64,000 nucleotides of DNA from contig WGMA01000016.1 in NCBI GenBank assembly GCA_016125285.1, positions 1 to 64,000 of the forward strand, given 5' to 3'. The translations under genes were made by a program, and so were the position numbers. This DNA is from Phycisphaera sp. GTDB lineage: Bacteria; Planctomycetota; Phycisphaerae; Phycisphaerales; Zrk34. Positions 1,914 to 26,040 of this stretch are shown here, in pieces (positions within the stretch are counted from its first letter, which is position 1; every line of letters begins with the position of its first letter). The notes under the pieces are model-generated. The model worked only from the letters and a program-made list of their open reading frames with translations, made no database searches and was not told the DNA's origin.

Positions 1914-1944
1914 TCGTGACTCGCGAGAGAGGTATGATCTCCCG

Positions 1945-2214
1945 ATGCCGACGATCGGGTTTACCGCCAACGTTGCGAAGTATGTCGACGTGTCGCCGCC
2001 GCGGCTGACGGGCGACACGGTGCGCGCGGCGCTGGAGGATCTGTTCGCGATCAACCCGAAGCTGCGCAGCTACGTGCTGGACGACCAGGGCGCGGTGCGC
2101 ACGCACGTGGTGGTGTTCGTCAACGGTGAAGCGATCGCGGACCGGGCGACGCTGAGCGAAGCGGTGAAGGACGATGACGAAATCTTCATCGCGCAGGCGC
2201 TGAGCGGGGGATAA
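1945..2214 (+). CDS. MoaD/ThiS-family ubiquitin-like sulfur-carrier protein
   Basis: ORF 1873-2214 trimmed to ATG 1945, because the upstream part lies inside repeat A. The 89-aa protein ends in the diagnostic C-terminal Gly-Gly (..IAQALSGG*). Confidence 0.75.
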   Translation: MPTIGFTANVAKYVDVSPPRLTGDTVRAALEDLFAINPKLRSYVLDDQGAVRTHVVVFVNGEAIADRATLSEAVKDDDEIFIAQALSGG

Positions 2215-2322
2215 GGAAATGCAAATTGAAAAATGCAAAATGCAAAATGCAAAATGTGCGCCCAGGTGCGGCGCGCATCCATTTTGCGATTTGCAATTCT
2301 CATTTTGCAATCTGCAATTTCC
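2215..2322. repeat. AT-rich palindromic intergenic repeat, copy B
   Basis: The left arm GGAAATGCAAATTGAAAAATGCAAAATGCAAAATGCAAAATG pairs imperfectly with the right arm (reverse complement GGAAATTGCAGATTGCAAAATGAGAATTGCAAATCGCAAAATGG). It starts immediately after the stop at 2214. Confidence 0.8.
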
Positions 2323-2343
2323 TCTTCAACGCGGAGTGTTCAC

Positions 2344-3435
2344 ATGATCCTCGTCGGCACCAGAAAGGGTTTGTTCTTCGTCGAAGACGGTCGCATCGCG
2401 TCGGTGCATTTTCCCGGCGTGCAGGTTCCGATGGTGCTGCGTGACCCGCGTGACGGGGCGATCTACGCGGCGCTGGATCACGGGCACTTCGGCGGCAAGC
2501 TGCACCGCAGTGACGACGAGGGCAAGACGTGGGAGGAGCTGACGCCGCCGACGTTTCCGCCGAAGCCGGACGACGTGGAGGACATCTATTGTCCGATGCG
2601 CAAGATCGTGATCCCGTGGTCGCTGAAGCTGACGTGGGAGCTGACGCCTGGCGGCGCGGACGAGCCGGGCGTGTTGTGGGCGGGCGTGATCCCGAGCGCG
2701 GTGTTCAAGTCGACCGACCGCGGCGCGACGTGGGAGTTGAATCGACCGCTGTGGGATCAGCCCGGGCGCGCGAAGTGGATGGGCGGCGGGTTCGACTACC
2801 CCGGCGTGCACTCGATCGCGGTCGATCCGGCGGACTCGAAGCACGTGACGATCGCGATCAGCAGCGGCGGCGTGTGGCAGACACGCGACGGCGGGGCGAC
2901 GTGGGCCGCGACGTCGACCGGCATGCACAACAGCTATTCGCCGCCCGGGCAGGAGGGCGAGCCCGAGGGGCAGGACCCGCACCGCATGGTCGTGTGCCCC
3001 GGCGATCCGAAGCGGGCGTGGGTGCAGCATCACTGCGGCATGTATCGCAGCGACGACGGGTGCGACACGTGGGTGGAGCTGAAGGACGTCGAGCCGTCGA
3101 CGTTCGGGTTCGCGGTGGCGGTGCACCCGACGGACGGCGACACGGCGTGGTTCGCGCCGGCGAAGAGCGACATGGAGCGCATGGCTGCGGACGCGCGGGT
3201 GGTGGTGGTCCGCACGCGCGACGGCGGCAAGTCGTTTGAGACGCTGACGAACGGCCTGCCGCAGGAGCACGCGTACGACCTGATCTTCCGGCACTGCCTC
3301 GACGTCGACTCGACCGGCGACCGGCTGGCGATGGGCTCGACGACCGGTTCACTGTGGACGAGCGACGACGGGGGCGACTCGTGGGCGACGGTGTCGGAGC
3401 ATCTGCCGCCGGTGTATTGCGTCAGATTTGGGTGA
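2344..3435 (+). CDS. BNR/Asp-box repeat beta-propeller protein (sialidase-fold / Ycf48-like)
   Basis: ORF trimmed to ATG 2344. Six Asp-box motifs are present: SDDEGKTW, STDRGATW, TRDGGATW, SDDGCDTW, TRDGGKSF and SDDGGDSW. Confidence 0.8.
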   Translation: MILVGTRKGLFFVEDGRIASVHFPGVQVPMVLRDPRDGAIYAALDHGHFGGKLHRSDDEGKTWEELTPPTFPPKPDDVEDIYCPMRKIVIPWSLKLTWELTPGGADEPGVLWAGVIPSAVFKSTDRGATWELNRPLWDQPGRAKWMGGGFDYPGVHSIAVDPADSKHVTIAISSGGVWQTRDGGATWAATSTGMHNSYSPPGQEGEPEGQDPHRMVVCPGDPKRAWVQHHCGMYRSDDGCDTWVELKDVEPSTFGFAVAVHPTDGDTAWFAPAKSDMERMAADARVVVVRTRDGGKSFETLTNGLPQEHAYDLIFRHCLDVDSTGDRLAMGSTTGSLWTSDDGGDSWATVSEHLPPVYCVRFG

Positions 3436-3453
3436 TAGCGGGCGCGTCGAGTA

Positions 3454-3591
3454 GGAACTGCAAATTGAAATTGCAGATTGGTCATTGCAAATTGCAAAGT
3501 GCCTGAAGCCTGCGGCTGCGATCGCAGTGGTGAACCTTATCGCTGGCACAATGATCCGTTTGCAATGCTCAATGATCAATTTGCAATTCCC
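3454..3591. repeat. AT-rich palindromic intergenic repeat, copy C
   Basis: It shares an identical 31-nt run (ttgcagattggtcattgcaaattgcaaagtg) with copy A and ends in the same tttgcaattccc terminus. It lies between the stop at 3435 and the start at 3622. Confidence 0.85.
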
Positions 3592-3621: not shown

Positions 3622-5031
3622 ATGAAGGAATGGATCCCGCGCATCGTGGTGCTGGTGCTGTTCGTGGCCGTGGTCGGGCTGCCGGTGTTGTGGCGTCCGG
3701 CTGAGGCGAAGACGGACGCAGATGCGGCGCTGAAGCTCGTGGTGATCACGCCGCACAACGAGCAGATCCGGTTCGAGATCGGGCGGGCGTTCAGCAAGTG
3801 GCACGAGGCGAAGTACGGCGAGGCGGTCGACATCGACTGGCGTGCGATCGGCGGCACGAGCGACATCGAGCGCGTGCTGCTCAGCGAGTACGCGTCGCTG
3901 GCCGAGCAGGGCAAGCTCGAGGACGGCGCGGGGTACGACGTGGTGTTCGGCGGGGGCGACTACTCGTTCGACTTCAAGCTCAAGCCCGGCGTGCAGTGGA
4001 ATGGCAAGATGGAGAGCGTGCTCGAGCCGCTGGACCTCGACGACGCGTTCATCAAAGAGGTGTACCCCGAGCCGACGATCGCGGGCAACAAGCTGTACGA
4101 CCCGGAGCACTACTGGTGGGGTGTGGTGCTGTCGAGCTTCGGCATCGTGTACAACCGCGACGTGCTGAGGCTGCGCGGCGTGCCCGAGCCGAAGACGTGG
4201 GAAGACCTCGGCGACCCGAAGCTCGCGGGGTGGATCGCGCTGGCGGACCCCGAGCACTCGGGCTCGGTGAAGGTGACGTACAACGCGATCGTGCAGAACT
4301 ACGGCTACGAGCGCGGGTGGGCGACGCTGCGACGCGCGTGCGCCAACGCGCGGTACTTCTCCAACAGCAGCTCGAAGGTGCCGCTCGACGTCTCGGCGGG
4401 CGAGGCGGCGGCGGGCATGTGCATCGATTTCTACGGGCGATACCAGGCGAACGTCGTCGGCGCGGACCGCGTGGGCTTCGTCGCGCCGGCGGGGCAGACG
4501 GTGGTGACCGCGGACCCCGTCGCCGTGCTGCGCGGCTGCCAGCGCCCCCAGCTCGCCGAGCGGTTCGTGCGGTGGCTGCTGAGCACCGAGGGGCAGCTGC
4601 TGTGGAACGTGCCGGTCGGCCACGCGGCGGGGCCGGAGAAGTTCGGCCTGCGACGCATGCCCATCCGGCGCGACGTGTACAAGCCGTACCTCGGCGAGAT
4701 GATCGACCGGGTCGACCCCTTCGAGATCGCCAGCCCGCTGCCGGCCGGCACGCCGAGCTACTTCAGCGTGATCGGCCCGGTGATGCACGCGATGGCGATC
4801 GACATCCACGACGACCTGCGCGACGCGTGGCGGACGATCAACCAGACGACCGACGAAGCGCAACGCGCCGAGATGCTCAAGCTGTTCGACGCGATGCCGC
4901 TGACGAGCGACGAGCTGCTCGCCCGCAAGGCGGAGTGGAAGAAGAACCCGGACACGCAGATCGCCGACCGCCTGGCGTGGACGACGTTCTACCGGGACAA
5001 CTACCGGCGCATCGTTGAGATGGGACGCTGA
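3622..5031 (+). CDS. Extracellular solute-binding protein (ABC-type, family 1 / iron(III)-polyamine-like), membrane-anchored
   Basis: 469 aa with an N-terminal hydrophobic anchor (RIVVLVLFVAVVGLPVL). The overall pattern resembles periplasmic binding proteins (LKLVVITPHNEQI.., GSVKVTYNAIVQ). The family call comes from recollection, not a search. Confidence 0.55.
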   Translation: MKEWIPRIVVLVLFVAVVGLPVLWRPAEAKTDADAALKLVVITPHNEQIRFEIGRAFSKWHEAKYGEAVDIDWRAIGGTSDIERVLLSEYASLAEQGKLEDGAGYDVVFGGGDYSFDFKLKPGVQWNGKMESVLEPLDLDDAFIKEVYPEPTIAGNKLYDPEHYWWGVVLSSFGIVYNRDVLRLRGVPEPKTWEDLGDPKLAGWIALADPEHSGSVKVTYNAIVQNYGYERGWATLRRACANARYFSNSSSKVPLDVSAGEAAAGMCIDFYGRYQANVVGADRVGFVAPAGQTVVTADPVAVLRGCQRPQLAERFVRWLLSTEGQLLWNVPVGHAAGPEKFGLRRMPIRRDVYKPYLGEMIDRVDPFEIASPLPAGTPSYFSVIGPVMHAMAIDIHDDLRDAWRTINQTTDEAQRAEMLKLFDAMPLTSDELLARKAEWKKNPDTQIADRLAWTTFYRDNYRRIVEMGR

Positions 5032-16856: not shown

Positions 16857-18128
16857 CTACTGCTTGACGTCGAAGCAGAAGAACAGGTCCTGGTCACGCA
16901 GGTACAGCTTGCCGTCGCTGATCACCGGGTGGACCCAGATCTTGCCGCTCTTGCGGGGCTTGTTGGTCTTCGCGGGCAGATTGAGGCGGCCGTGCTCCTT
17001 CCAGCCGTCCTTGCTCGCCTCGATCAGCACGCACGTGCCGTCGCTCTCGCTGTACAGGTACAGCATGCCGTCGGCGTAGGTGCACGAGCCCTTGCCCAGG
17101 TCGCGCGAGCTCCAGATCATGTCGCCCGACATGAAATCCTGGCAGACCCACGCCGAGTCGTTGTGACCGTAGAGCTGCTCGCCCACGCGGACCACGCCGC
17201 CGTGGTGGTTCTTCATCGTCTTGTTGTCGTAGACGATCTCCGCGGACTTCGAGTCGTCGGCGATCTTGATCAGCATGCAGCCCTGGCCGTAACCCGACGT
17301 GATGTACACGTGACCGTTGTGGTAGATCGGCGTAGGGATCACCGCCGTCTTGCCGTGCCACGGCACCGACCAAAGCAGCTTGCCGTCCTTCGCGTCGATG
17401 CCGTTGACGCTTTCGACACGCAGCTTGACGTACTGACGCTTGCCGTTGTGATCGATGGCGATCAGCGACGAGTAGTGGCCCGCGTCCTTGAAGTTGTCCG
17501 ACTTCCAGATGATCTCGCCGGTCTTCTTGTTGAACGCGTAGCAGGGCCCGTTGCCGCCGGCGGTGGCGACCACCTGGTCGCCGTCCACGAGCGGCGACTG
17601 CGTGTAGCCCCAGCCCTCGGTCTTGCCGCCGAGCTTGTTGAGGTCCTGCGTCCACAGGCTCTTGCCGCTCGTCGCGTCGATGCACGCCAGCTCGCCCTTC
17701 GAGCCCATGCAGTACGCCTTGCCGTCGTCGATCGTCGGCGTCGAACGCGGGCCGTCGCCCCAGTTGTTGTCGTAGTGCGAGCCGACCGGCGTCGACCAGA
17801 TCATCTTGCCGTTCGACGCGTCGAGGCAGTGCAGTTCCTCGCCGTTGCCGCGGTCGGACATGATGTAGATGCGCCCTCCGACGACCGACGGTCCCGCGTG
17901 CCCGATCCCCAGCGTGTCGATCTGCCACACGAGCTTCGGGCCGCCCTCGGGCCACTGCTTGAGCAGTCCGGTCTCCGACGAGCGGTCGGTGCGATCCGGC
18001 CCGCGCCACTGCGGCCAGTCCGCCGCCATCGCCGCCGACGCCAGCGCGAGCGCCGCGCCGGTGATGATCATGCTCGCCGTTCGCGTCGCCCACGGCGTCG
18101 CTACGTTCTTACCTCGCGCGTTGGTCAT
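16857..18128 (-). CDS. Secreted PQQ-like beta-propeller repeat protein (BamB-family fold)
   Basis: 423 aa with a signal peptide (..ALALASAAMAADWPQWRG). Repeated motifs include G.IY.., DG.LY and W-rich blades. A GAGGGA RBS is present. Confidence 0.8.
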   Translation of the reverse strand: MTNARGKNVATPWATRTASMIITGAALALASAAMAADWPQWRGPDRTDRSSETGLLKQWPEGGPKLVWQIDTLGIGHAGPSVVGGRIYIMSDRGNGEELHCLDASNGKMIWSTPVGSHYDNNWGDGPRSTPTIDDGKAYCMGSKGELACIDATSGKSLWTQDLNKLGGKTEGWGYTQSPLVDGDQVVATAGGNGPCYAFNKKTGEIIWKSDNFKDAGHYSSLIAIDHNGKRQYVKLRVESVNGIDAKDGKLLWSVPWHGKTAVIPTPIYHNGHVYITSGYGQGCMLIKIADDSKSAEIVYDNKTMKNHHGGVVRVGEQLYGHNDSAWVCQDFMSGDMIWSSRDLGKGSCTYADGMLYLYSESDGTCVLIEASKDGWKEHGRLNLPAKTNKPRKSGKIWVHPVISDGKLYLRDQDLFFCFDVKQ

Positions 18129-18741: not shown

Positions 18742-19092
18742 ATGATCCTCGTCGCCACCTACAGCTCGCGCTATTGCGTCGCGATCAAGAAGTTCGTCGA
18801 GGACCTCGGCTATCACGCCCTGGCCACGACCGACGGCGAGGACGCCTGGGAGATCTACCGCGGCCGAAAGAAGGAACTCGAACTCGCCATCCTCGACGCC
18901 AACCTCCCGCACAAGTCCGGCGTGTCCATCATGCAGGAGATCCGCGCCGGCGATCCCAAGTTTCCGATCATCCTGCTCTTCCGGTCCGAGCAGAAGCACT
19001 TCATCGAGGAAGAGAACGTCCACTGCCTCAACAACCCCGTCGACCGGGAAGTGCTGCGCGAGCTCGTCATCGAAACGACGATGTTCGGCTGA
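18742..19092 (+). CDS. Stand-alone receiver-like (REC) domain protein, atypical
   Basis: ORF 18562-19092 trimmed to ATG 18742. It has an alpha/beta receiver pattern with the acceptor context LAILDANLPHKSG. It lacks the N-terminal acidic pair (ILVATYSS) and the conserved Lys (CLNNP). Confidence 0.6.
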   Translation: MILVATYSSRYCVAIKKFVEDLGYHALATTDGEDAWEIYRGRKKELELAILDANLPHKSGVSIMQEIRAGDPKFPIILLFRSEQKHFIEEENVHCLNNPVDREVLRELVIETTMFG

Positions 19093-19104: not shown

Positions 19105-20487
<1,383 letters not shown>

Positions 20488-20521
20488 GGCCGCAGTATAA
20501 CTTCGCGATCCTCACGATGTG

Positions 20522-20551
20522 GTGAAATTCACTAGCATTAGTGAAAATCAC
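20522..20551. promoter_or_regulatory. Candidate enhancer (UAS): two copies of an 11-bp near-palindrome
   Basis: GTGAAATTCAC (20522-20532) and GTGAAAATCAC (20541-20551). They lie about 70-100 bp upstream of the -24/-12 element and just upstream of the divergent activator gene. Confidence 0.55.
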
Positions 20552-20620
20552 TATATCCTCCAGGACATTAGAAAATACGTATCTTTATTAAATAAAGAGC
20601 ATTATGCGTAATTTTGGCTC

Positions 20621-20636
20621 TGGCACGTCTGTTGCA
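20621..20636 (+). promoter_or_regulatory. Sigma-54 (RpoN) -24/-12 promoter
   Basis: cTGGCACGtctgTTGCAt: TGGCAC at 20621-20626, a 5-nt spacer, and TTGCA at 20632-20636. This is a near-perfect match to YTGGCACGrNNNTTGCW. It lies about 50 nt upstream of ATG 20686. Confidence 0.8.
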
Positions 20637-20685
20637 TTGTGATAGGCGGGGAGAGCGACGATCACTGGAAGAAAGGATCAGAGGG

Positions 20686-21051
20686 ATGCATAGCTCCCGC
20701 AAGATATCGGTACGCGACTGGCTCACGAGACTGGCCATCCTCGGCATCGTCAGCTTCATGGTGATTGGCGCCGAGCAGGTCACGCTTCAGTGGACCTACC
20801 CCACGACGCTCAGCGAGCTGGCCGTTCAGCAGCTCGAGGCGTCGAACGACGTCGCCGAGGCGATGCGTATCCAGAGCGACCTGCGGCACACGCTGACGAT
20901 GGTCTGCGAGTCGCTGGTCGTGGCGGTCGCGCTGGTCCTGTTCACCGGCCCCGTAGTGGCGCTGTTCCAGCGTCGCACCTCCGACGAAGGCGCAGGCGAT
21001 CGCGATGACGACGCCGACGCCGCCGCGCTCCGGCGCGCGCGGGGCGCCTGA
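20686..21051 (+). CDS. Small hypothetical membrane protein (two TM) with an acidic tail
   Basis: ORF 20614-21051 trimmed to ATG 20686, which follows GGAAGAAAGGA..GAGGG. TM segments are LAILGIVSFMVIGA and LVVAVALVLFTGPVVALF. Confidence 0.55.
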   Translation: MHSSRKISVRDWLTRLAILGIVSFMVIGAEQVTLQWTYPTTLSELAVQQLEASNDVAEAMRIQSDLRHTLTMVCESLVVAVALVLFTGPVVALFQRRTSDEGAGDRDDDADAAALRRARGA

Positions 21052-21171
21052 ATCACCACCCGCCACTGAATCCTCGTTGACCCGTGCGCCAAACGTGCGC
21101 GCCGGGAAGACGCCTCACACCCACACGCGGCTCGGCCGCGCACGCTCACCGTACGTGAAAGGACACCGAAG

Positions 21172-22224
21172 ATGACACGCCAAACACTCAAACTGCTCGT
21201 CACGCTCACGCTCGTCGCCGTCATGACCACCGGCTGCAAGCCGTACGATAAGCCCGAATTCGAGGAGATTGACACCTCGGAGACCGGCTTCCTCATCCCG
21301 CTCGAGGGCGACACGACCAAGCAACAGTCGTTCGAGTCGGAGACCTACCTCGACCAGCGCAAGGTCGCGGCCAAGCGCGTCGAGATCCCGCACCGCTGGG
21401 TGCAGACCGGCCGCGCGTGGTGGGCCGGTCAGTGGATGGACATGGTCCGCCTGGTGAAGGTCGACCGCTCGCCGGTGACGCGCGAGTGGACCGCCGAGGC
21501 GACCAGCGGCACGTCGAAGGCGAACCAGGCGATCTGGATCGAGTCGAAGGACTCGGTCGGCTTCAGCGTCGGGTTCAACTGCACGGCGTACATCCAGGAG
21601 CCCAACACGGCCAAGTTCCTCTACATGTACCGCAGCAAGTCGCTGGCCGACATGATGGACACCGAGGTGCGTGCGCGCATCCAGTCCGTCGCCGCGGAGG
21701 TCGCCGCGGAGTACGACCTCGACGAGCTCCGCTCCAAGAAGCAGGAGATCATCGACAAGGTCCGCACCGATGTCATCCCGTTCTTCGAGCAGCGTGGCAT
21801 CAGCATCACCACGATCGGCATGTTCGGCGGGTTCACCTACCAGAACGTCGCCATCCAGAACGCGATCGACGAGACGTTCGTCGCGCAGCAGCTGAAGGTC
21901 GTGGCCGACGCGAAGCTCAAGGCGCAGCTCAAGGAGAACGAGGTGATCGAGCTCGCCGCGAAGGCCGAGGCGAACAAGGCCGAGACGATCGCCACCGGCG
22001 AGGCCGCCGCGATCACGAAGGTCGCCGAGGCGACGTCCAAGGCGCAGAAGGACCCGCTGTTCATCCAGCTGCGACTGCTCGAGGTCGAGAACGCCCGCAT
22101 CGCCAAGTGGGACGGCAAGTACCCCGTCTACATGATGCAGCTCGGCCAAGGCGACACCCAGACCCAAGCGCCGCAGATGCTCCTGCAGCTTCCTCCTGTC
22201 AGCGCGACCAGCGTGTCCCGCTGA
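21172..22224 (+). CDS. SPFH/Band-7 (prohibitin-homology) domain lipoprotein
   Basis: Lipobox LVAVMTTGC. An SPFH-like core is followed by an Ala/Lys/Glu-rich coiled coil (AKLKAQLKENEVIELAAKAEANKAETIATGEAAAI). The RBS is GAAAGGA. Confidence 0.65.
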   Translation: MTRQTLKLLVTLTLVAVMTTGCKPYDKPEFEEIDTSETGFLIPLEGDTTKQQSFESETYLDQRKVAAKRVEIPHRWVQTGRAWWAGQWMDMVRLVKVDRSPVTREWTAEATSGTSKANQAIWIESKDSVGFSVGFNCTAYIQEPNTAKFLYMYRSKSLADMMDTEVRARIQSVAAEVAAEYDLDELRSKKQEIIDKVRTDVIPFFEQRGISITTIGMFGGFTYQNVAIQNAIDETFVAQQLKVVADAKLKAQLKENEVIELAAKAEANKAETIATGEAAAITKVAEATSKAQKDPLFIQLRLLEVENARIAKWDGKYPVYMMQLGQGDTQTQAPQMLLQLPPVSATSVSR

Positions 22225-22267
22225 CCGCGAGCCCGCCGCTCGCTTGAGAGCCCTTCCGGGGCTTTCG

Positions 22268-22299
22268 GGAGCCGACCGTTAAGTCGGTCGGCTCCTTTT
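22268..22299 (+). terminator. Rho-independent terminator
   Basis: GGAGCCGACCG-ttaagt-CGGTCGGCTCC, a perfect 11-bp stem, followed by TTTT. Confidence 0.85.
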
Positions 22300-22349
22300 G
22301 AGAAGTCGCAACCCTGTGGATCGATCAGTCGATCAGATTGGAGACACCG

Positions 22350-24482: not shown

Positions 24483-25979
24483 CTACTTGATCGACGCGAG
24501 CTTCGCGTCGAGCTTGGCTCGCATGTCGTCGAGGACCTGCTTGTGCTGCGGGTCCTCGGCGAGGTTGGTGAACTGGTGGGGGTCCTTTTCCATGTCGTAC
24601 AGTTCGACGCCGCTCTTGCCGTCGTTGTATACGATCAACGCCCAGCGGTCGGTGCGCAGCATGTGGTCGGCGTCGTTGCGCAGCGTGTAGACCGACTCGT
24701 GCACGGCGGGCGCGTGGTCCGGGTCATTGACGACGGACGCGAGGCTCTTGCCCTGCACGTGCGGCGGGATCGGCAGGCCGCAAAGCTCCGCGAGCGTGGG
24801 GTAGATGTCGATCTGTTGGCCGAGCGCGTCGGGCGCGCCGACGGGGCGACCGGGCGCGGCGACGATGAGCGGGATGTGCGTCGTCTCCTCGTGCAGGTGC
24901 ATCTTCTGCCACAGCTCGTGCTCGCCGAGCTGGTAGCCGTGGTCCGCGGTGAACACGACGATCGTGTTGTCGCGGAGGCCGAGCCGGTCGAGCGCGCCGA
25001 GGATCTTGCCGACCTGTGCGTCCATGTAAGACACCGCCGCGTAGTACGCTTCGAGCACCTTCTGCTTCTTGAGCGTCGTGTCGAGCCCGCGCTTCTGGCT
25101 GTCGTTGTGTCGCCCGGCTTCGGGGATGTCCGCTTCGTCGTTCTCCACGCTCAGCGCCAGCTTCATCTCCTCCGCGGGGTACGGCTCGAAGAACGACGCG
25201 GGCGCGACCAGCGGCACGTGCGGTCGCACCAGACCCACCGCGAGGAAGAACGGCTTGTCGTCCTTGCCGTGCTTCTCCAGCAGTTCGACCGCCTTCGCCG
25301 CGGTCTTGTGATCGGCCTGCTCCGTGCCATCGCTCGCGCCGCGCACGACGTAGAACGCGCTTCCATAACCCAGCGCGTAATGGATGTCGTGGTTCGGGTC
25401 GGGCTTGAGGCGATCGTGCGACAGGTGCTCGTGCACGCCCTCGGTCCACTGCTCGGGCGCCTGGCTGTTGAATCGTTCGGTCCACGACGCTTCGTGGTCG
25501 GGGCCGTCGACGCCCGCCGTGATGTCGCCCGGGACGCGCATGTGATAGATCTTGCTGACGCGCGCGGTGTAGTAGCCGTGGTCGCGGAACTGCTGCGCCA
25601 TGGTGGGGCGGTCGCCCATCCGCTTGGTGAAGCCGTTGGCCTGAGCGTTGGAGGTCACGCCGATCACCTGCGCGTACATGCCCGACATCAGCGCCGCACG
25701 CGACGGCCCGCACACGGGGTACTGGCAGTACACGCGTGTGAAGCGCGCCCCGCGCGCCGCCAGCGCGTCGAGGTTCGGCGTCTTGCACTGCGTGTTGCCG
25801 TAGCAGCCCAGCGATTGCGAGCCCAGGTCGTCGGAGATGATGAACAGCACGTTGGGCTTGCGGTCCGCGGCGCGCAGCGGCGTCACGCAGGCGAGCAGCG
25901 CGGCGGTGATGAGCACGGCGATCAGGCATGCAAGCGGGGCGGCATCGGAGCGGACGGATAAACGGTCGGGCGTCGTCAT
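24483..25979 (-). CDS. Cys-type sulfatase (formylglycine-dependent)
   Basis: ORF trimmed to ATG 25979. A signal peptide is followed by KPNVLFIISDDLG and the active-site motif CGPSRAALMSG. Confidence 0.9.
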   Translation of the reverse strand: MTTPDRLSVRSDAAPLACLIAVLITAALLACVTPLRAADRKPNVLFIISDDLGSQSLGCYGNTQCKTPNLDALAARGARFTRVYCQYPVCGPSRAALMSGMYAQVIGVTSNAQANGFTKRMGDRPTMAQQFRDHGYYTARVSKIYHMRVPGDITAGVDGPDHEASWTERFNSQAPEQWTEGVHEHLSHDRLKPDPNHDIHYALGYGSAFYVVRGASDGTEQADHKTAAKAVELLEKHGKDDKPFFLAVGLVRPHVPLVAPASFFEPYPAEEMKLALSVENDEADIPEAGRHNDSQKRGLDTTLKKQKVLEAYYAAVSYMDAQVGKILGALDRLGLRDNTIVVFTADHGYQLGEHELWQKMHLHEETTHIPLIVAAPGRPVGAPDALGQQIDIYPTLAELCGLPIPPHVQGKSLASVVNDPDHAPAVHESVYTLRNDADHMLRTDRWALIVYNDGKSGVELYDMEKDPHQFTNLAEDPQHKQVLDDMRAKLDAKLASIK

Positions 25980-26040
25980 GCGGCGATCCTTATGTGTTGG
26001 GTCTTGTAACAACGGCGCGACCGGAGGGCGAGATGGCGTG

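What the first reader, a model, noticed from the sequence alone, without database searches (positions are those of the whole stretch)
20686..22299. Putative sigma-54-dependent envelope module: small two-TM protein plus SPFH/Band-7 lipoprotein, closed by a strong terminator
The sigma-54 promoter faces a 121-aa two-TM protein. After 120 nt comes a 350-aa lipoprotein with an SPFH-like core and a long Ala/Lys/Glu coiled coil. A canonical terminator follows (11-bp stem plus TTTT at 22268-22299). The arrangement recalls sigma-54/EBP-controlled membrane-stress systems such as psp, and the common pairing of SPFH proteins with a small membrane partner. However, the small protein does not look NfeD-like, and the SPFH protein is predicted to be lipid-anchored outside the cytoplasm. 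Whether the SPFH gene uses the sigma-54 promoter or its own promoter in the 120-nt gap is unresolved.
Basis: inference. Interest (0 to 1): 0.5.

Follow-up and report, generated by a model that had tools for sequence, protein, structure and literature searches.

The report
Sigma-54-controlled SPFH lipoprotein with membrane partner
A planctomycete operon encodes a small two-helix membrane protein and an outward-facing SPFH (stomatin/HflK-like) lipoprotein that are one fused protein in most relatives, and a neighbouring sigma-54 activator appears to switch it on; the pairing and the control region are real and conserved, but nobody has studied them.

Summary
A divergent sigma-54 activator (19105-20487, minus strand) faces a perfect -24/-12 promoter (20621-20636). 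This is followed by a 121-aa two-TM gene, a 120-nt gap, a 350-aa SPFH lipoprotein gene and a strong hairpin terminator.

- **The small protein is the SPFH protein's conserved partner.** In 53 of 65 related loci, mostly Verrucomicrobiota, it is fused in frame to the N-terminus of the SPFH protein. A profile of those fused extensions finds the window ORF at E=1e-16.
- **The fused forms keep an internal lipoprotein signal.** It has a K/R-rich stretch, an uncharged stretch of about 16 aa, L-T/S-G and an invariant Cys.
- **The activator, two tandem upstream palindromes and the sigma-54 promoter are conserved only in Planctomycetota.** This includes three loci where the target is the fused gene, so the SPFH protein belongs to the regulon.
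- **Verrucomicrobial loci lack all three elements.**

It is not NfeD-type, HflK/C-type or Psp. The inducing signal and the function are inferred only. I judge it a new variant of a known kind, of moderate interest.

The parts
19105..20487 (-). Sigma-54 enhancer-binding protein (460 aa). It has an N-terminal pseudo-receiver, an AAA+ domain with GAFTGA, and a C-terminal Fis-type HTH. It is transcribed divergently from the module.
   Evidence: Pfam Sigma54_activat 1.7e-62, AAA_lid_14 and HTH_8; Response_reg reaches only 19 bits against a cut-off of 30.2. Orthologues of 57-67% identity sit divergent and adjacent in 11 of 12 Planctomycetota-type loci. The NtrC D54 position holds H-S/G-E, T82 is replaced by A, and K104 by L/R.
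20516..20557 (.). Candidate activator-binding sites (UAS). Two tandem palindromic sites, GTGAAATTCACTA (20522-20534) and GTGAAAATCACTA (20541-20553), lie 19 bp apart and 81-100 nt upstream of the -24 GG. They sit about 30 nt from the activator's own start codon.
   Evidence: Repeats D1/D2 and inverted repeat I1. The motif GTGAAANTCAC occurs more often in the window than in any of 100 shuffles. Equivalent paired palindromes sit at the same position in L002, L003, L004, L006, L007, L008, L009 and L011.
20558..20615 (.). AT-rich spacer between the UAS and the promoter, which may bend or loop the DNA.
   Evidence: GC is 0.35-0.38 here against 0.65-0.77 in the flanks. Similar AT-rich spacers occur in the orthologous loci. 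No IHF site is claimed.
20621..20636 (+). Sigma-54 promoter TGGCACgtctgTTGCA, with GG at 20622-20623 and GC at 20634-20635. The predicted transcription start is near 20647.
   Evidence: It scores 12 of 12 against the consensus and is conserved at this position in Planctomycetota loci; background windows never reach 12.
20686..21051 (+). Small partner protein (121 aa). The order is a K/R-rich N-terminus, TM1, a periplasmic helical hairpin carrying the LAVQQL motif, TM2, and an acidic cytoplasmic tail.
   Evidence: An HMM built from 55 fused N-terminal extensions hits this ORF at E = 1.3e-16; the next best of 542 window ORF segments scores E = 1.5. The N-domain lies immediately upstream of the SPFH part in 64 of 65 loci. 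AF2 on the fused homologue models a helical hairpin at pLDDT about 80. The topology follows from the positive-inside rule and is inferred.
21052..21171 (+). Intercistronic gap of 120 nt. It is in the same reading frame as both genes and contains two in-frame stops. The ribosome-binding site AAAGGA precedes the SPFH ATG.
   Evidence: No significant fold (z = -0.83), GC of 0.69-0.73 with no AT dip, and no sigma-70-like or sigma-54-like site on the + strand.
21172..22224 (+). SPFH/Band-7 lipoprotein (350 aa). The order is a signal peptide with lipobox TTG|C (Cys22 at 21235-21237), a divergent SPFH domain, a helix of about 67 residues (226-292), a second helix (295-312), and a conserved C-terminal W-D-G-x-Y-P ... 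LLQLP tail.
22267..22300 (+). Intrinsic terminator with a 12-pair GC-rich stem, a 6-nt loop and UUUU.
   Evidence: The genes downstream of the module differ between orthologous loci.

Best explanation
This is a two-gene operon encoding a divergent SPFH membrane-scaffold module that, in these searches, was found almost only in Planctomycetota and Verrucomicrobiota. In this lineage a dedicated sigma-54 activator controls it.

**Proposed mechanism**
1. The activator encoded next door binds the two tandem palindromes about 80-100 bp upstream of the -24/-12 promoter. It has a pseudo-receiver, an AAA+ domain with GAFTGA, and a Fis-type HTH.
2. When an unknown signal relieves control through its non-phosphorylatable N-terminal domain, it remodels the sigma-54 holoenzyme.
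3. One transcript then runs from about 20647 to the terminator at 22300.
4. The first product inserts into the cytoplasmic membrane as an N-in/C-in helical hairpin that projects into the periplasm.
5. The second product is exported, lipidated at Cys22, and sits on the periplasmic face of the same membrane.
6. There it oligomerises through its long coiled coil and C-terminal tail into an HflK/C-like ring or cage, which associates 1:1 with the hairpin protein.

**What is shown**
- The gene content and the SPFH fold.
- Homology of the small protein to the fused N-terminal domain.
- Conservation of the activator, the UAS and the promoter.

**What is inferred**
- Co-transcription, topology and lipidation.
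- Oligomeric cage formation and physical contact between the two proteins.
- The nature of the signal; envelope or membrane stress is only a guess.
For: - SPFH identity.
- Partner identity: the two parts are one ORF in 53 of 65 loci and split in 11, ten of which are Planctomycetota-type. The profile hit to the window ORF is E = 1.3e-16. A38/Q41 of the LAxxQ motif are invariant in 61 fused proteins.
- Lipoprotein: Cys22 is invariant in both alignments and G21 is invariant or nearly so.
- Regulation: the activator is divergent and adjacent in 11 of 12 Planctomycetota-type loci. The promoter is conserved in position and sequence. Paired palindromes and an AT-rich spacer are conserved. Three activator-linked loci carry the fused gene, so the SPFH part is necessarily transcribed from that promoter there.
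- Operon: no terminator or promoter signal in the gap, and a strong terminator after the SPFH gene.
- Cage-type architecture: a long CC1 helix, a CC2 helix and C-terminal strands appear in the AF2 models. The best structural matches are subunits of solved SPFH complexes, several of them named as cages in their PDB titles (HflK/C, prohibitin, flotillin, stomatin, QmcA).
- Inheritance: identity falls with taxonomic distance, from 67-74% within Planctomycetota to 50-60% in Verrucomicrobiota. There is no defence-system hit. Both point to a vertically inherited envelope function.
Against: - There are no expression data, so sigma-54 dependence and co-transcription are predictions.
- The -24/-12 elements in the fused Planctomycetota loci are weak (8 of 12, CGGyAyr-N4-ATGC), which is within background scores. 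There the argument rests on position and the flanking UAS.
- L005 has a 10/12 promoter but no adjacent activator.
- The family functions without this regulator in Verrucomicrobiota, so regulation says little about core function.
- Residues 26-127 of the SPFH protein are highly conserved but modelled with low confidence. The N-terminal half of the SPFH domain is therefore assigned by Pfam and fold matches to the C-terminal half only.
- Global TM-scores are low (0.2-0.3), because the coiled coil is placed differently.
- No multimer model could be run.
- The lipobox has T at position -3, which is acceptable under the PROSITE rule but not the classical L.
Confidence: 0.62

Rival explanations
1. 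The sigma-54 promoter drives only the small gene. The SPFH gene has its own, possibly constitutive, promoter in the 120-nt gap.
For: The gap is long for an intercistronic spacer (120 nt). Planctomycete housekeeping promoters are poorly defined, so the negative consensus scan is weak evidence.
Against: The gap has coding-like GC (0.69-0.73) and no AT dip, no terminator-like fold, and no sigma-54 or sigma-70 match. In sister lineages with the same control region the two parts are a single ORF. The other split loci also have short gaps, for example 63 nt in L002.
Confidence: 0.12
2. The conserved Cys is not a lipidation site. The hydrophobic segment before it is an uncleaved transmembrane anchor, as in HflK/C, and the Cys serves another role such as a disulfide or packing.
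For: In 53 fused loci the segment is internal, a position where Lgt/LspA processing has, to my knowledge, not been described. A literature search for 'internal lipobox' found nothing. L009/L010 have a non-canonical LVRC.
Against: In the window the segment is N-terminal and has all features of a type II signal peptide. Across the family position -1 is G or S in 60 of 61 loci, position -3 is mostly L, the uncharged stretch is 13-20 aa (median 16) and so short for a TM helix, and it is preceded by a K/R cluster. The Cys is invariant.
Confidence: 0.2
3. The module is a mobile conflict or defence element, such as an SPFH-containing abortive-infection or membrane-damage system, rather than an envelope scaffold.
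For: SPFH domains occur in some predicted conflict systems (PMC7159879, found). The AT-rich control region stands out from the GC-rich genome.
Against: There are no PADLOC hits. No nuclease, toxin or NTPase partner is present. Orthologues follow taxonomy and sit in varied, non-mobile contexts. The AT-rich stretch is confined to the roughly 150-nt intergenic control region.
Confidence: 0.04
4. The sigma-54 circuit responds to a nutritional or developmental cue, such as nitrogen or carbon status or the life-cycle stage, and not to envelope stress. The Psp analogy is misleading.
For: Most sigma-54 activators control metabolism or development. The activator has a pseudo-receiver rather than a PspF-like bare AAA+ core. 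It scores below the PspF equivalog cut-off, 348 against 443.55 bits. No PspA-like negative regulator is encoded nearby.
Against: Bacterial SPFH operons that have been studied are envelope-stress regulated, including B. subtilis pspA-ydjGHI (PMC8581546). From general knowledge, the sigma-W-dependent floA and floT operons are further examples. This is argument by analogy only.
Confidence: 0.3

Closest known systems
HflK/HflC (E. coli), periplasm-facing SPFH cage around FtsH
   Different: There is one SPFH gene, not a paralogous pair. The anchor is a lipobox Cys instead of an N-terminal TM helix. No FtsH is linked. The partner is a small helical-hairpin protein. Sequence similarity is marginal: the PDB profile search gives a best E of 0.022, to prohibitin.
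SPFH-NfeD operon pairs (QmcA-YbbJ in E. coli; PH1511-PH1510; FloA-NfeD2 and FloT-NfeD1b in B. subtilis)
   Different: The partner has no NfeD or OB-fold domain and no Pfam or NCBIfam hit. It lies upstream and is usually fused N-terminally. The SPFH domain faces the periplasm; from general knowledge, QmcA and the flotillins are cytoplasmic.
Psp response (PspF / sigma-54 / pspABCDE in E. coli) and B. subtilis pspA-ydjGHI
   Same: A divergent sigma-54 activator drives a small membrane-protein operon. In B. subtilis the SPFH protein YdjI, with the small membrane proteins YdjG/H, is part of a stress-induced Psp complex (PMC8581546). The AAA+ core of the activator scores best against the PspF model.
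   Different: The operon has no PspA/IM30 gene. The activator has an N-terminal pseudo-receiver and fails the PspF cut-off. From general knowledge, YdjI is cytoplasmic and sigma-W controlled, not sigma-54 controlled.
Polyprotein precursors cleaved at an internal signal peptide (Bradyrhizobium FbcH, cytochrome b-c1); cited from my own knowledge, not checked here
   Same: In the fused relatives a polytopic N-terminal part is followed by an internal signal-peptide-like segment and an exported domain.
   Different: The FbcH precedent involves signal peptidase I. Here the internal signal is of the lipoprotein (LspA) type, for which I found no precedent. The window itself carries the split, ordinary arrangement.

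Membership tests
SPFH / Band 7 superfamily | Sequence match to the SPFH domain model above the curated threshold | tested here: met
   PF01145 scores 26.3 bits against a cut-off of 23.6, E = 9.2e-6, over residues 125-251. All 61 aligned relatives match, with a best E of 4.2e-9.
SPFH / Band 7 superfamily | SPFH alpha/beta fold followed by a long coiled-coil helix | tested here: met
SPFH / Band 7 superfamily | Membrane anchoring and assembly into large ring or cage oligomers | not testable with these tools
   The anchor is predicted from the lipobox or TM segment. No multimer prediction or experiment was available.
SPFH-NfeD operon pair | Partner protein carries an NfeD (OB-fold) domain | tested here: not met
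   The small protein has no Pfam or NCBIfam family at E <= 0.01. No NfeD family appears among the 61 relatives, fused ones included. The AF2 model of the fused N-domain is a helical hairpin, not a beta-barrel.
HflK/HflC | Two paralogous SPFH genes in tandem | tested here: not met
   The window and all loci carry a single SPFH gene.
HflK/HflC | Functional association with the FtsH protease | not tested
   Neither FtsH linkage nor a physical association was examined.
Sigma-54-dependent promoter with enhancer-binding protein | -24 GG and -12 GC elements at canonical spacing, upstream of the gene and in its orientation | tested here: met
   TGGCACgtctgTTGCA lies at 20621-20636, 50 nt before the ATG. 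It is conserved in orthologous loci above background.
Sigma-54-dependent promoter with enhancer-binding protein | Cognate bEBP with an AAA+ domain, a GAFTGA loop and a DNA-binding HTH, plus upstream binding sites | tested here: met
   Sigma54_activat 1.7e-62 and HTH_8. GAFTGA is visible in the translation. Conserved paired palindromes lie 80-100 nt upstream. Actual binding was not tested.
Sigma-54-dependent promoter with enhancer-binding protein | Transcription depends on RpoN and the activator | not testable with these tools
   This needs RNA-seq or reporter assays in rpoN or activator mutants. I did not look for rpoN in the window.
Psp (phage-shock) system | PspA/IM30 effector encoded in the regulated operon | tested here: not met
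   The operon holds only the 121-aa protein (no family) and the SPFH protein (Band_7 only).
Psp (phage-shock) system | PspF-type activator (equivalog, no N-terminal regulatory domain) | tested here: not met
   TIGR02974 scores 348 bits against a cut-off of 443.55. An N-terminal domain of about 150 aa is present.
Response-regulator receiver (activator N-terminus) | Phospho-acceptor Asp plus the acidic pocket, and the conserved Thr/Ser and Lys | tested here: not met
   Response_reg reaches only 19 bits against a cut-off of 30.2. In the alignment with the NtrC receiver, D54 is replaced by H-S/G-E, D11/D12 by E-P or similar, T82 by A, and K104 by L/R, consistently across orthologues.
Bacterial lipoprotein (Lgt/LspA substrate) | N-terminal signal peptide ending in a lipobox with an invariant Cys | tested here: met
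   The signal is MTRQTLKLLVTLTLVAVMTTG|C. The Cys is invariant in 8, 61 and 61 sequences. Position -1 is G or S in 60 of 61 loci. Lipidation itself cannot be tested here.

The most novel reading that the evidence does not exclude
In most relatives (53 of 65 loci) the module is made as a single precursor: a two-TM hairpin, a cytoplasmic K/R loop, an internal type II (lipoprotein) signal with an invariant lipobox Cys, and then the SPFH domain. The most novel reading is that Lgt and LspA process this internal signal. One polypeptide would then yield both an integral membrane hairpin protein and a lipid-anchored periplasmic SPFH scaffold in strict 1:1 stoichiometry. The window's two-gene operon would be the genetically 'pre-cleaved' version of the same complex: the two genes share a reading frame and are separated by two stop codons. 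That would be a lipoprotein produced from the middle of a polytopic membrane protein. It would also define a non-NfeD SPFH partner seen here almost only in Planctomycetota and Verrucomicrobiota. Such a partner might relate to the unusual cytoplasmic-membrane architecture reported for these bacteria.
Probability: 0.3. Interest if true: 0.7.

Novelty: new variant of a known kind. Interest (0 to 1): 0.5.

Why it matters
SPFH proteins (stomatin, prohibitin, flotillin, HflK/C) organise membrane microdomains in all domains of life. In bacteria, the only widely recognised operon partner is NfeD.

This locus adds three things:
- A second, unrelated partner type: a periplasm-projecting helical hairpin with an LAxxQ motif. 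Gene fusion in most lineages ties it to the SPFH protein.
- An SPFH scaffold that is lipid-anchored and faces the periplasm.
- A complete, conserved sigma-54 control region (activator, two palindromic sites, AT-rich spacer, -24/-12) in Planctomycetota. Almost no promoters or regulons have been defined in that phylum, so the region could serve as a testable model enhancer.

The internal lipobox of the fused forms also gives a concrete test of whether the lipoprotein maturation machinery can act in the middle of a membrane protein.

None of this changes a major paradigm unless that processing is shown.

Tried and rejected
- A single-sequence phmmer search with the small protein against 1.84 billion representatives gave only 13 hits. 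Three were small standalone partners and the rest were long repetitive proteins, probably spurious. It missed the fused forms, which only the profile recovered.
- The profile search of PDB sequences was nearly empty, with a best E of 0.022 to prohibitin. Fold comparison was needed.
- The AF2 model of the fused homologue P0070 was poor outside the N-terminal hairpin (mean pLDDT 62.5). It gave no information on contacts between the hairpin and the SPFH domain.
- The afdb50 fold library was unavailable.
- A search for conserved neighbours in verrucomicrobial loci found only clade-level synteny and no recurrent functional partner.
- My first fused/split classification by regular expression was wrong. 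I replaced it with an HMM and reading-frame test and recomputed the lipobox statistics.
- Literature searches for sigma-54 with SPFH, for SPFH lipoproteins, and for 'internal lipobox' found nothing on this family.
- I rejected the longer TTG start at 20614 for the small ORF (145 aa) because it would begin upstream of the promoter.
- I rejected the orphan receiver gene at 18781-19092 as part of the system, because it is not conserved next to the activator in other loci.
- The PADLOC defence models gave no hits.
Full report
**Source and observation**

The window comes from a Phycisphaera sp. metagenome-assembled genome; the 350-aa protein is 100% identical to an NCBI 'hypothetical protein GC159_06715'.

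- A divergent sigma-54 enhancer-binding protein at 19105-20487 on the minus strand. Pfam gives Sigma54_activat 1.7e-62, AAA_lid_14 and HTH_8. GAFTGA and Walker A are visible in the translation.
- A perfect TGGCAC-N5-TTGCA at 20621-20636.
- A 121-aa ORF at 20686-21051.
- A 120-nt gap.
- A 350-aa ORF at 21172-22224 that begins with a lipoprotein-type signal peptide.
- A terminator with a 12-pair stem at 22267-22296 plus UUUU. The region folds with z = -4.9.

One promoter match in 64 kb is not significant on its own, since shuffles give a mean of 4.4. The case for the promoter rests on conservation, described below.

**The large protein is an SPFH protein**

- Pfam Band_7 is just above its gathering score: 26.3 against 23.6 bits, over residues 125-251. 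The same model matches all 61 aligned relatives.
- NCBIfam has no model for it. A profile search of PDB sequences is almost empty, with a best E of 0.022 to prohibitin. The family is therefore divergent.
- An AlphaFold2 model built on 61 homologues has mean pLDDT 72.9. Block means over residues 131-320 range from 70 to 98, with most above 85.
- The top 34 Foldseek hits in the PDB are all prohibitin, stomatin, flotillin or HflK/C.
- The model shows the usual order of SPFH domain, a helix of about 67 residues, a second helix, and a conserved C-terminal tail.
- Residues 26-127 contain many invariant positions (EIDTSETGFLIPLEG, RSPVTREW, IWIESxDSVGFS) but are modelled with low confidence. I cannot explain this region.

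**The small protein is the conserved partner, and usually the same polypeptide**

- Homologues of the SPFH protein fall into two length classes, about 340-370 aa and about 425-490 aa.
- The long ones carry an N-terminal extension with two hydrophobic helices flanking a loop with an LAxxQ(L/F)NGG-like motif. A38 and Q41 of that motif are invariant in 61 fused proteins.
- An HMM built from 55 such extensions finds the window's small ORF at E = 1.3e-16. The next best of 542 ORF segments in the window scores E = 1.5.
- Of 84 loci examined (83 fetched loci plus the window region), 65 could be anchored on the EIDTSETG motif. In 64 of these the N-domain lies immediately upstream of the SPFH part: 53 fused in frame and 11 split.
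- Ten of the split loci are Planctomycetota-type, including the window. The eleventh, L072, looks like a frameshift.
- Three Planctomycetota loci are fused: Bremerella L003 and L008, and L006.
- In the window the two genes share a reading frame and are separated by 40 codons containing two stops. This fits fission of an ancestral fused gene.
- AF2 on a fused homologue models the N-domain as a long helical hairpin at pLDDT about 80.
- The K/R-rich N-terminus and the charged C-terminal tail place both ends in the cytoplasm and the hairpin tip in the periplasm. This follows from the positive-inside rule and is an inference.
- The partner has no NfeD domain or any other known family.

**The lipoprotein signal is conserved even when it is internal**

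- The Cys is invariant in every alignment.
- In the 53 fused loci the segment before it has a K/R cluster (median 4 of 10 residues) and an uncharged stretch of 13-20 residues (median 16).
- It then has position -3 mostly L (31 of 53), position -2 T/S/G, and position -1 G (49 of 53) or S (4 of 53).
- This is a standard type II signal peptide located after two transmembrane helices, with the orientation a signal peptide needs.
- Whether Lgt and LspA act on it is unknown. I found no literature on internal lipoboxes.
- In the window the signal is N-terminal and ordinary. Lipidation and a periplasmic location for the SPFH domain are the straightforward prediction here.

**Regulation**

- The activator is divergent and adjacent, at 57-67% identity, in 11 of 12 Planctomycetota-type loci. 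It is absent within 4 kb in the verrucomicrobial loci.
- I scored the 900 nt upstream of each module against TGGCACGnnnnTTGCW, requiring GG and GC. The window and L001/L002/L012 score 12 of 12, L004 scores 11, L005 and L011 score 10, and L007 and L009/L010 score 9.
- The three fused loci score 8, with a variant CGGyAyr-N4-ATGC. All of these lie 468-644 nt before the EIDTSETG anchor except L006, whose best match (295 nt) lies inside the coding region; its real -24/-12 candidate (CGGCATaggcaATGCA, 8 of 12) was read by eye from the sequence.
- Among 787 background windows, 16 reach 10, one reaches 11 and none reaches 12. Verrucomicrobial loci stay at background.
- Upstream of the promoter, every activator-linked locus has two tandem palindromes of the type TAGTGAAAnnTCACTA, followed by an AT-rich spacer.
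- In the window these palindromes are GTGAAATTCACTA (20522-20534) and GTGAAAATCACTA (20541-20553). The spacer drops to 35-38% GC in a genome of about 70% GC.
- The sites lie about 30 nt from the activator's own start codon, so autoregulation is possible. This is an inference.
- The activator's N-terminal domain resembles a receiver only weakly: 19 bits against a cut-off of 30.2. In an approximate alignment it lacks the phospho-acceptor Asp, the acidic pair, and the conserved Thr and Lys, consistently across orthologues. It is probably a pseudo-receiver controlled by something other than phosphorylation.
- No kinase is nearby. The orphan receiver at 18781-19092 is not conserved next to the activator elsewhere.

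**Transcription unit**

- The gap has no stable structure (z = -0.83), coding-like GC, and no promoter-like match.
- The SPFH ATG has its own AAAGGA ribosome-binding site.
- Three activator-linked loci encode both parts as one ORF.

The simplest reading is one sigma-54 transcript covering both genes and ending at the terminator. Downstream genes differ between loci, so the unit ends there.

**Comparison with known systems**

- The protein is a member of the SPFH superfamily.
- It works most like HflK/C in orientation, but it has a single SPFH gene, a lipid anchor and no FtsH link.
- It resembles SPFH-NfeD pairs in having a dedicated small membrane partner, but the partner is unrelated to NfeD. 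The published survey of prokaryotic SPFH proteins defined 12 subfamilies. It found conserved operon partners only for SPFH1, 2 and 5, and reported no documented members for subfamilies 6-12 (PMC2636767). I could not place this family in that scheme.
- The Psp analogy is limited to 'divergent sigma-54 activator plus small membrane proteins'. There is no PspA, and the activator fails the PspF model.
- The B. subtilis pspA-ydjGHI operon shows that SPFH proteins can be wired into envelope-stress responses (PMC8581546). It uses a different sigma factor, according to my own knowledge rather than any tool result here, and a cytoplasmic SPFH protein.
- There is no sign of a defence system.

**Verdict**

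It describes a conserved SPFH module found almost only in Planctomycetota and Verrucomicrobiota, made of a helical-hairpin membrane protein and an SPFH lipoprotein. The window carries the split form. A lineage-specific sigma-54 circuit with a well-defined enhancer controls it.

Function and inducing signal remain inferred. I rate it a new variant of a known kind, with moderate interest (0.5). The internal lipobox in the fused relatives is the most unusual lead.

Noticed in passing
window 18781-19092 (+): A single-domain response-regulator receiver (Response_reg 1.9e-10) lies convergent with the activator gene, and their ends are 12 nt apart. It is not conserved next to the activator in other loci.
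   Followed up: partly
window 20686-22224: The small gene and the SPFH gene are in the same reading frame (21172 - 20686 = 486 nt). The 120-nt gap contains two in-frame TGA stops (21049-21051 and 21067-21069), as expected if an ancestral fused gene was split by nonsense mutation and gained a new start.
   Followed up: partly
window 20654-20666: A third, weaker copy of the UAS-like 13-mer (AGCGACGATCACT, 77% identity to the reference) lies downstream of the promoter in the predicted 5' UTR. It may be chance or an extra regulatory site.
   Followed up: no
window 21247-21552 (SPFH residues 26-127): This is the most sequence-conserved part of the protein, with many invariant residues in 61 sequences. 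AlphaFold models it with pLDDT below 50 in several segments, chiefly residues 93-127. It may fold only in the oligomer or against the partner's periplasmic hairpin.
   Followed up: no
L009 / L010 (Phycisphaeraceae MAGs), about 4000-4045: The lipobox is non-canonical (LVRC, with Arg at position -1), and a second Cys lies six residues upstream (LLLIC). The processing site in this lineage is unclear.
   Followed up: no
L005 (Pirellulaceae MAG) 2237-3470: The locus keeps a 10/12 sigma-54-like promoter upstream of the split module, but the divergent neighbour is an ABC-transporter ATPase rather than the activator. The activator may be encoded elsewhere.
   Followed up: partly
L072 and L081 (Chthoniobacterales / Spartobacteria MAGs): These are the only verrucomicrobial loci where the N-domain is out of frame (L072) or undetected (L081). 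The open frame before the Cys is arginine-rich nonsense, which suggests assembly frameshifts rather than true splits.
   Followed up: no
window 22227-22266: Two further GC-rich hairpins (22227-22243 and 22246-22266) lie directly before the terminator stem. Together the three form a compound structure right after the stop codon.
   Followed up: no
L026 (Verrucomicrobiae MAG) 1929-3101: This is the only verrucomicrobial locus with a sigma-54 activator nearby (36% identity, same strand, upstream of the fused gene). No convincing -24/-12 element was found there (score 8).
   Followed up: no
window 16857-18128 (-) and 24483-26012 (-): The neighbouring genes are a PQQ/BamB-like beta-propeller protein and a sulfatase. 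They are typical planctomycete content and are not conserved with the module.
   Followed up: yes
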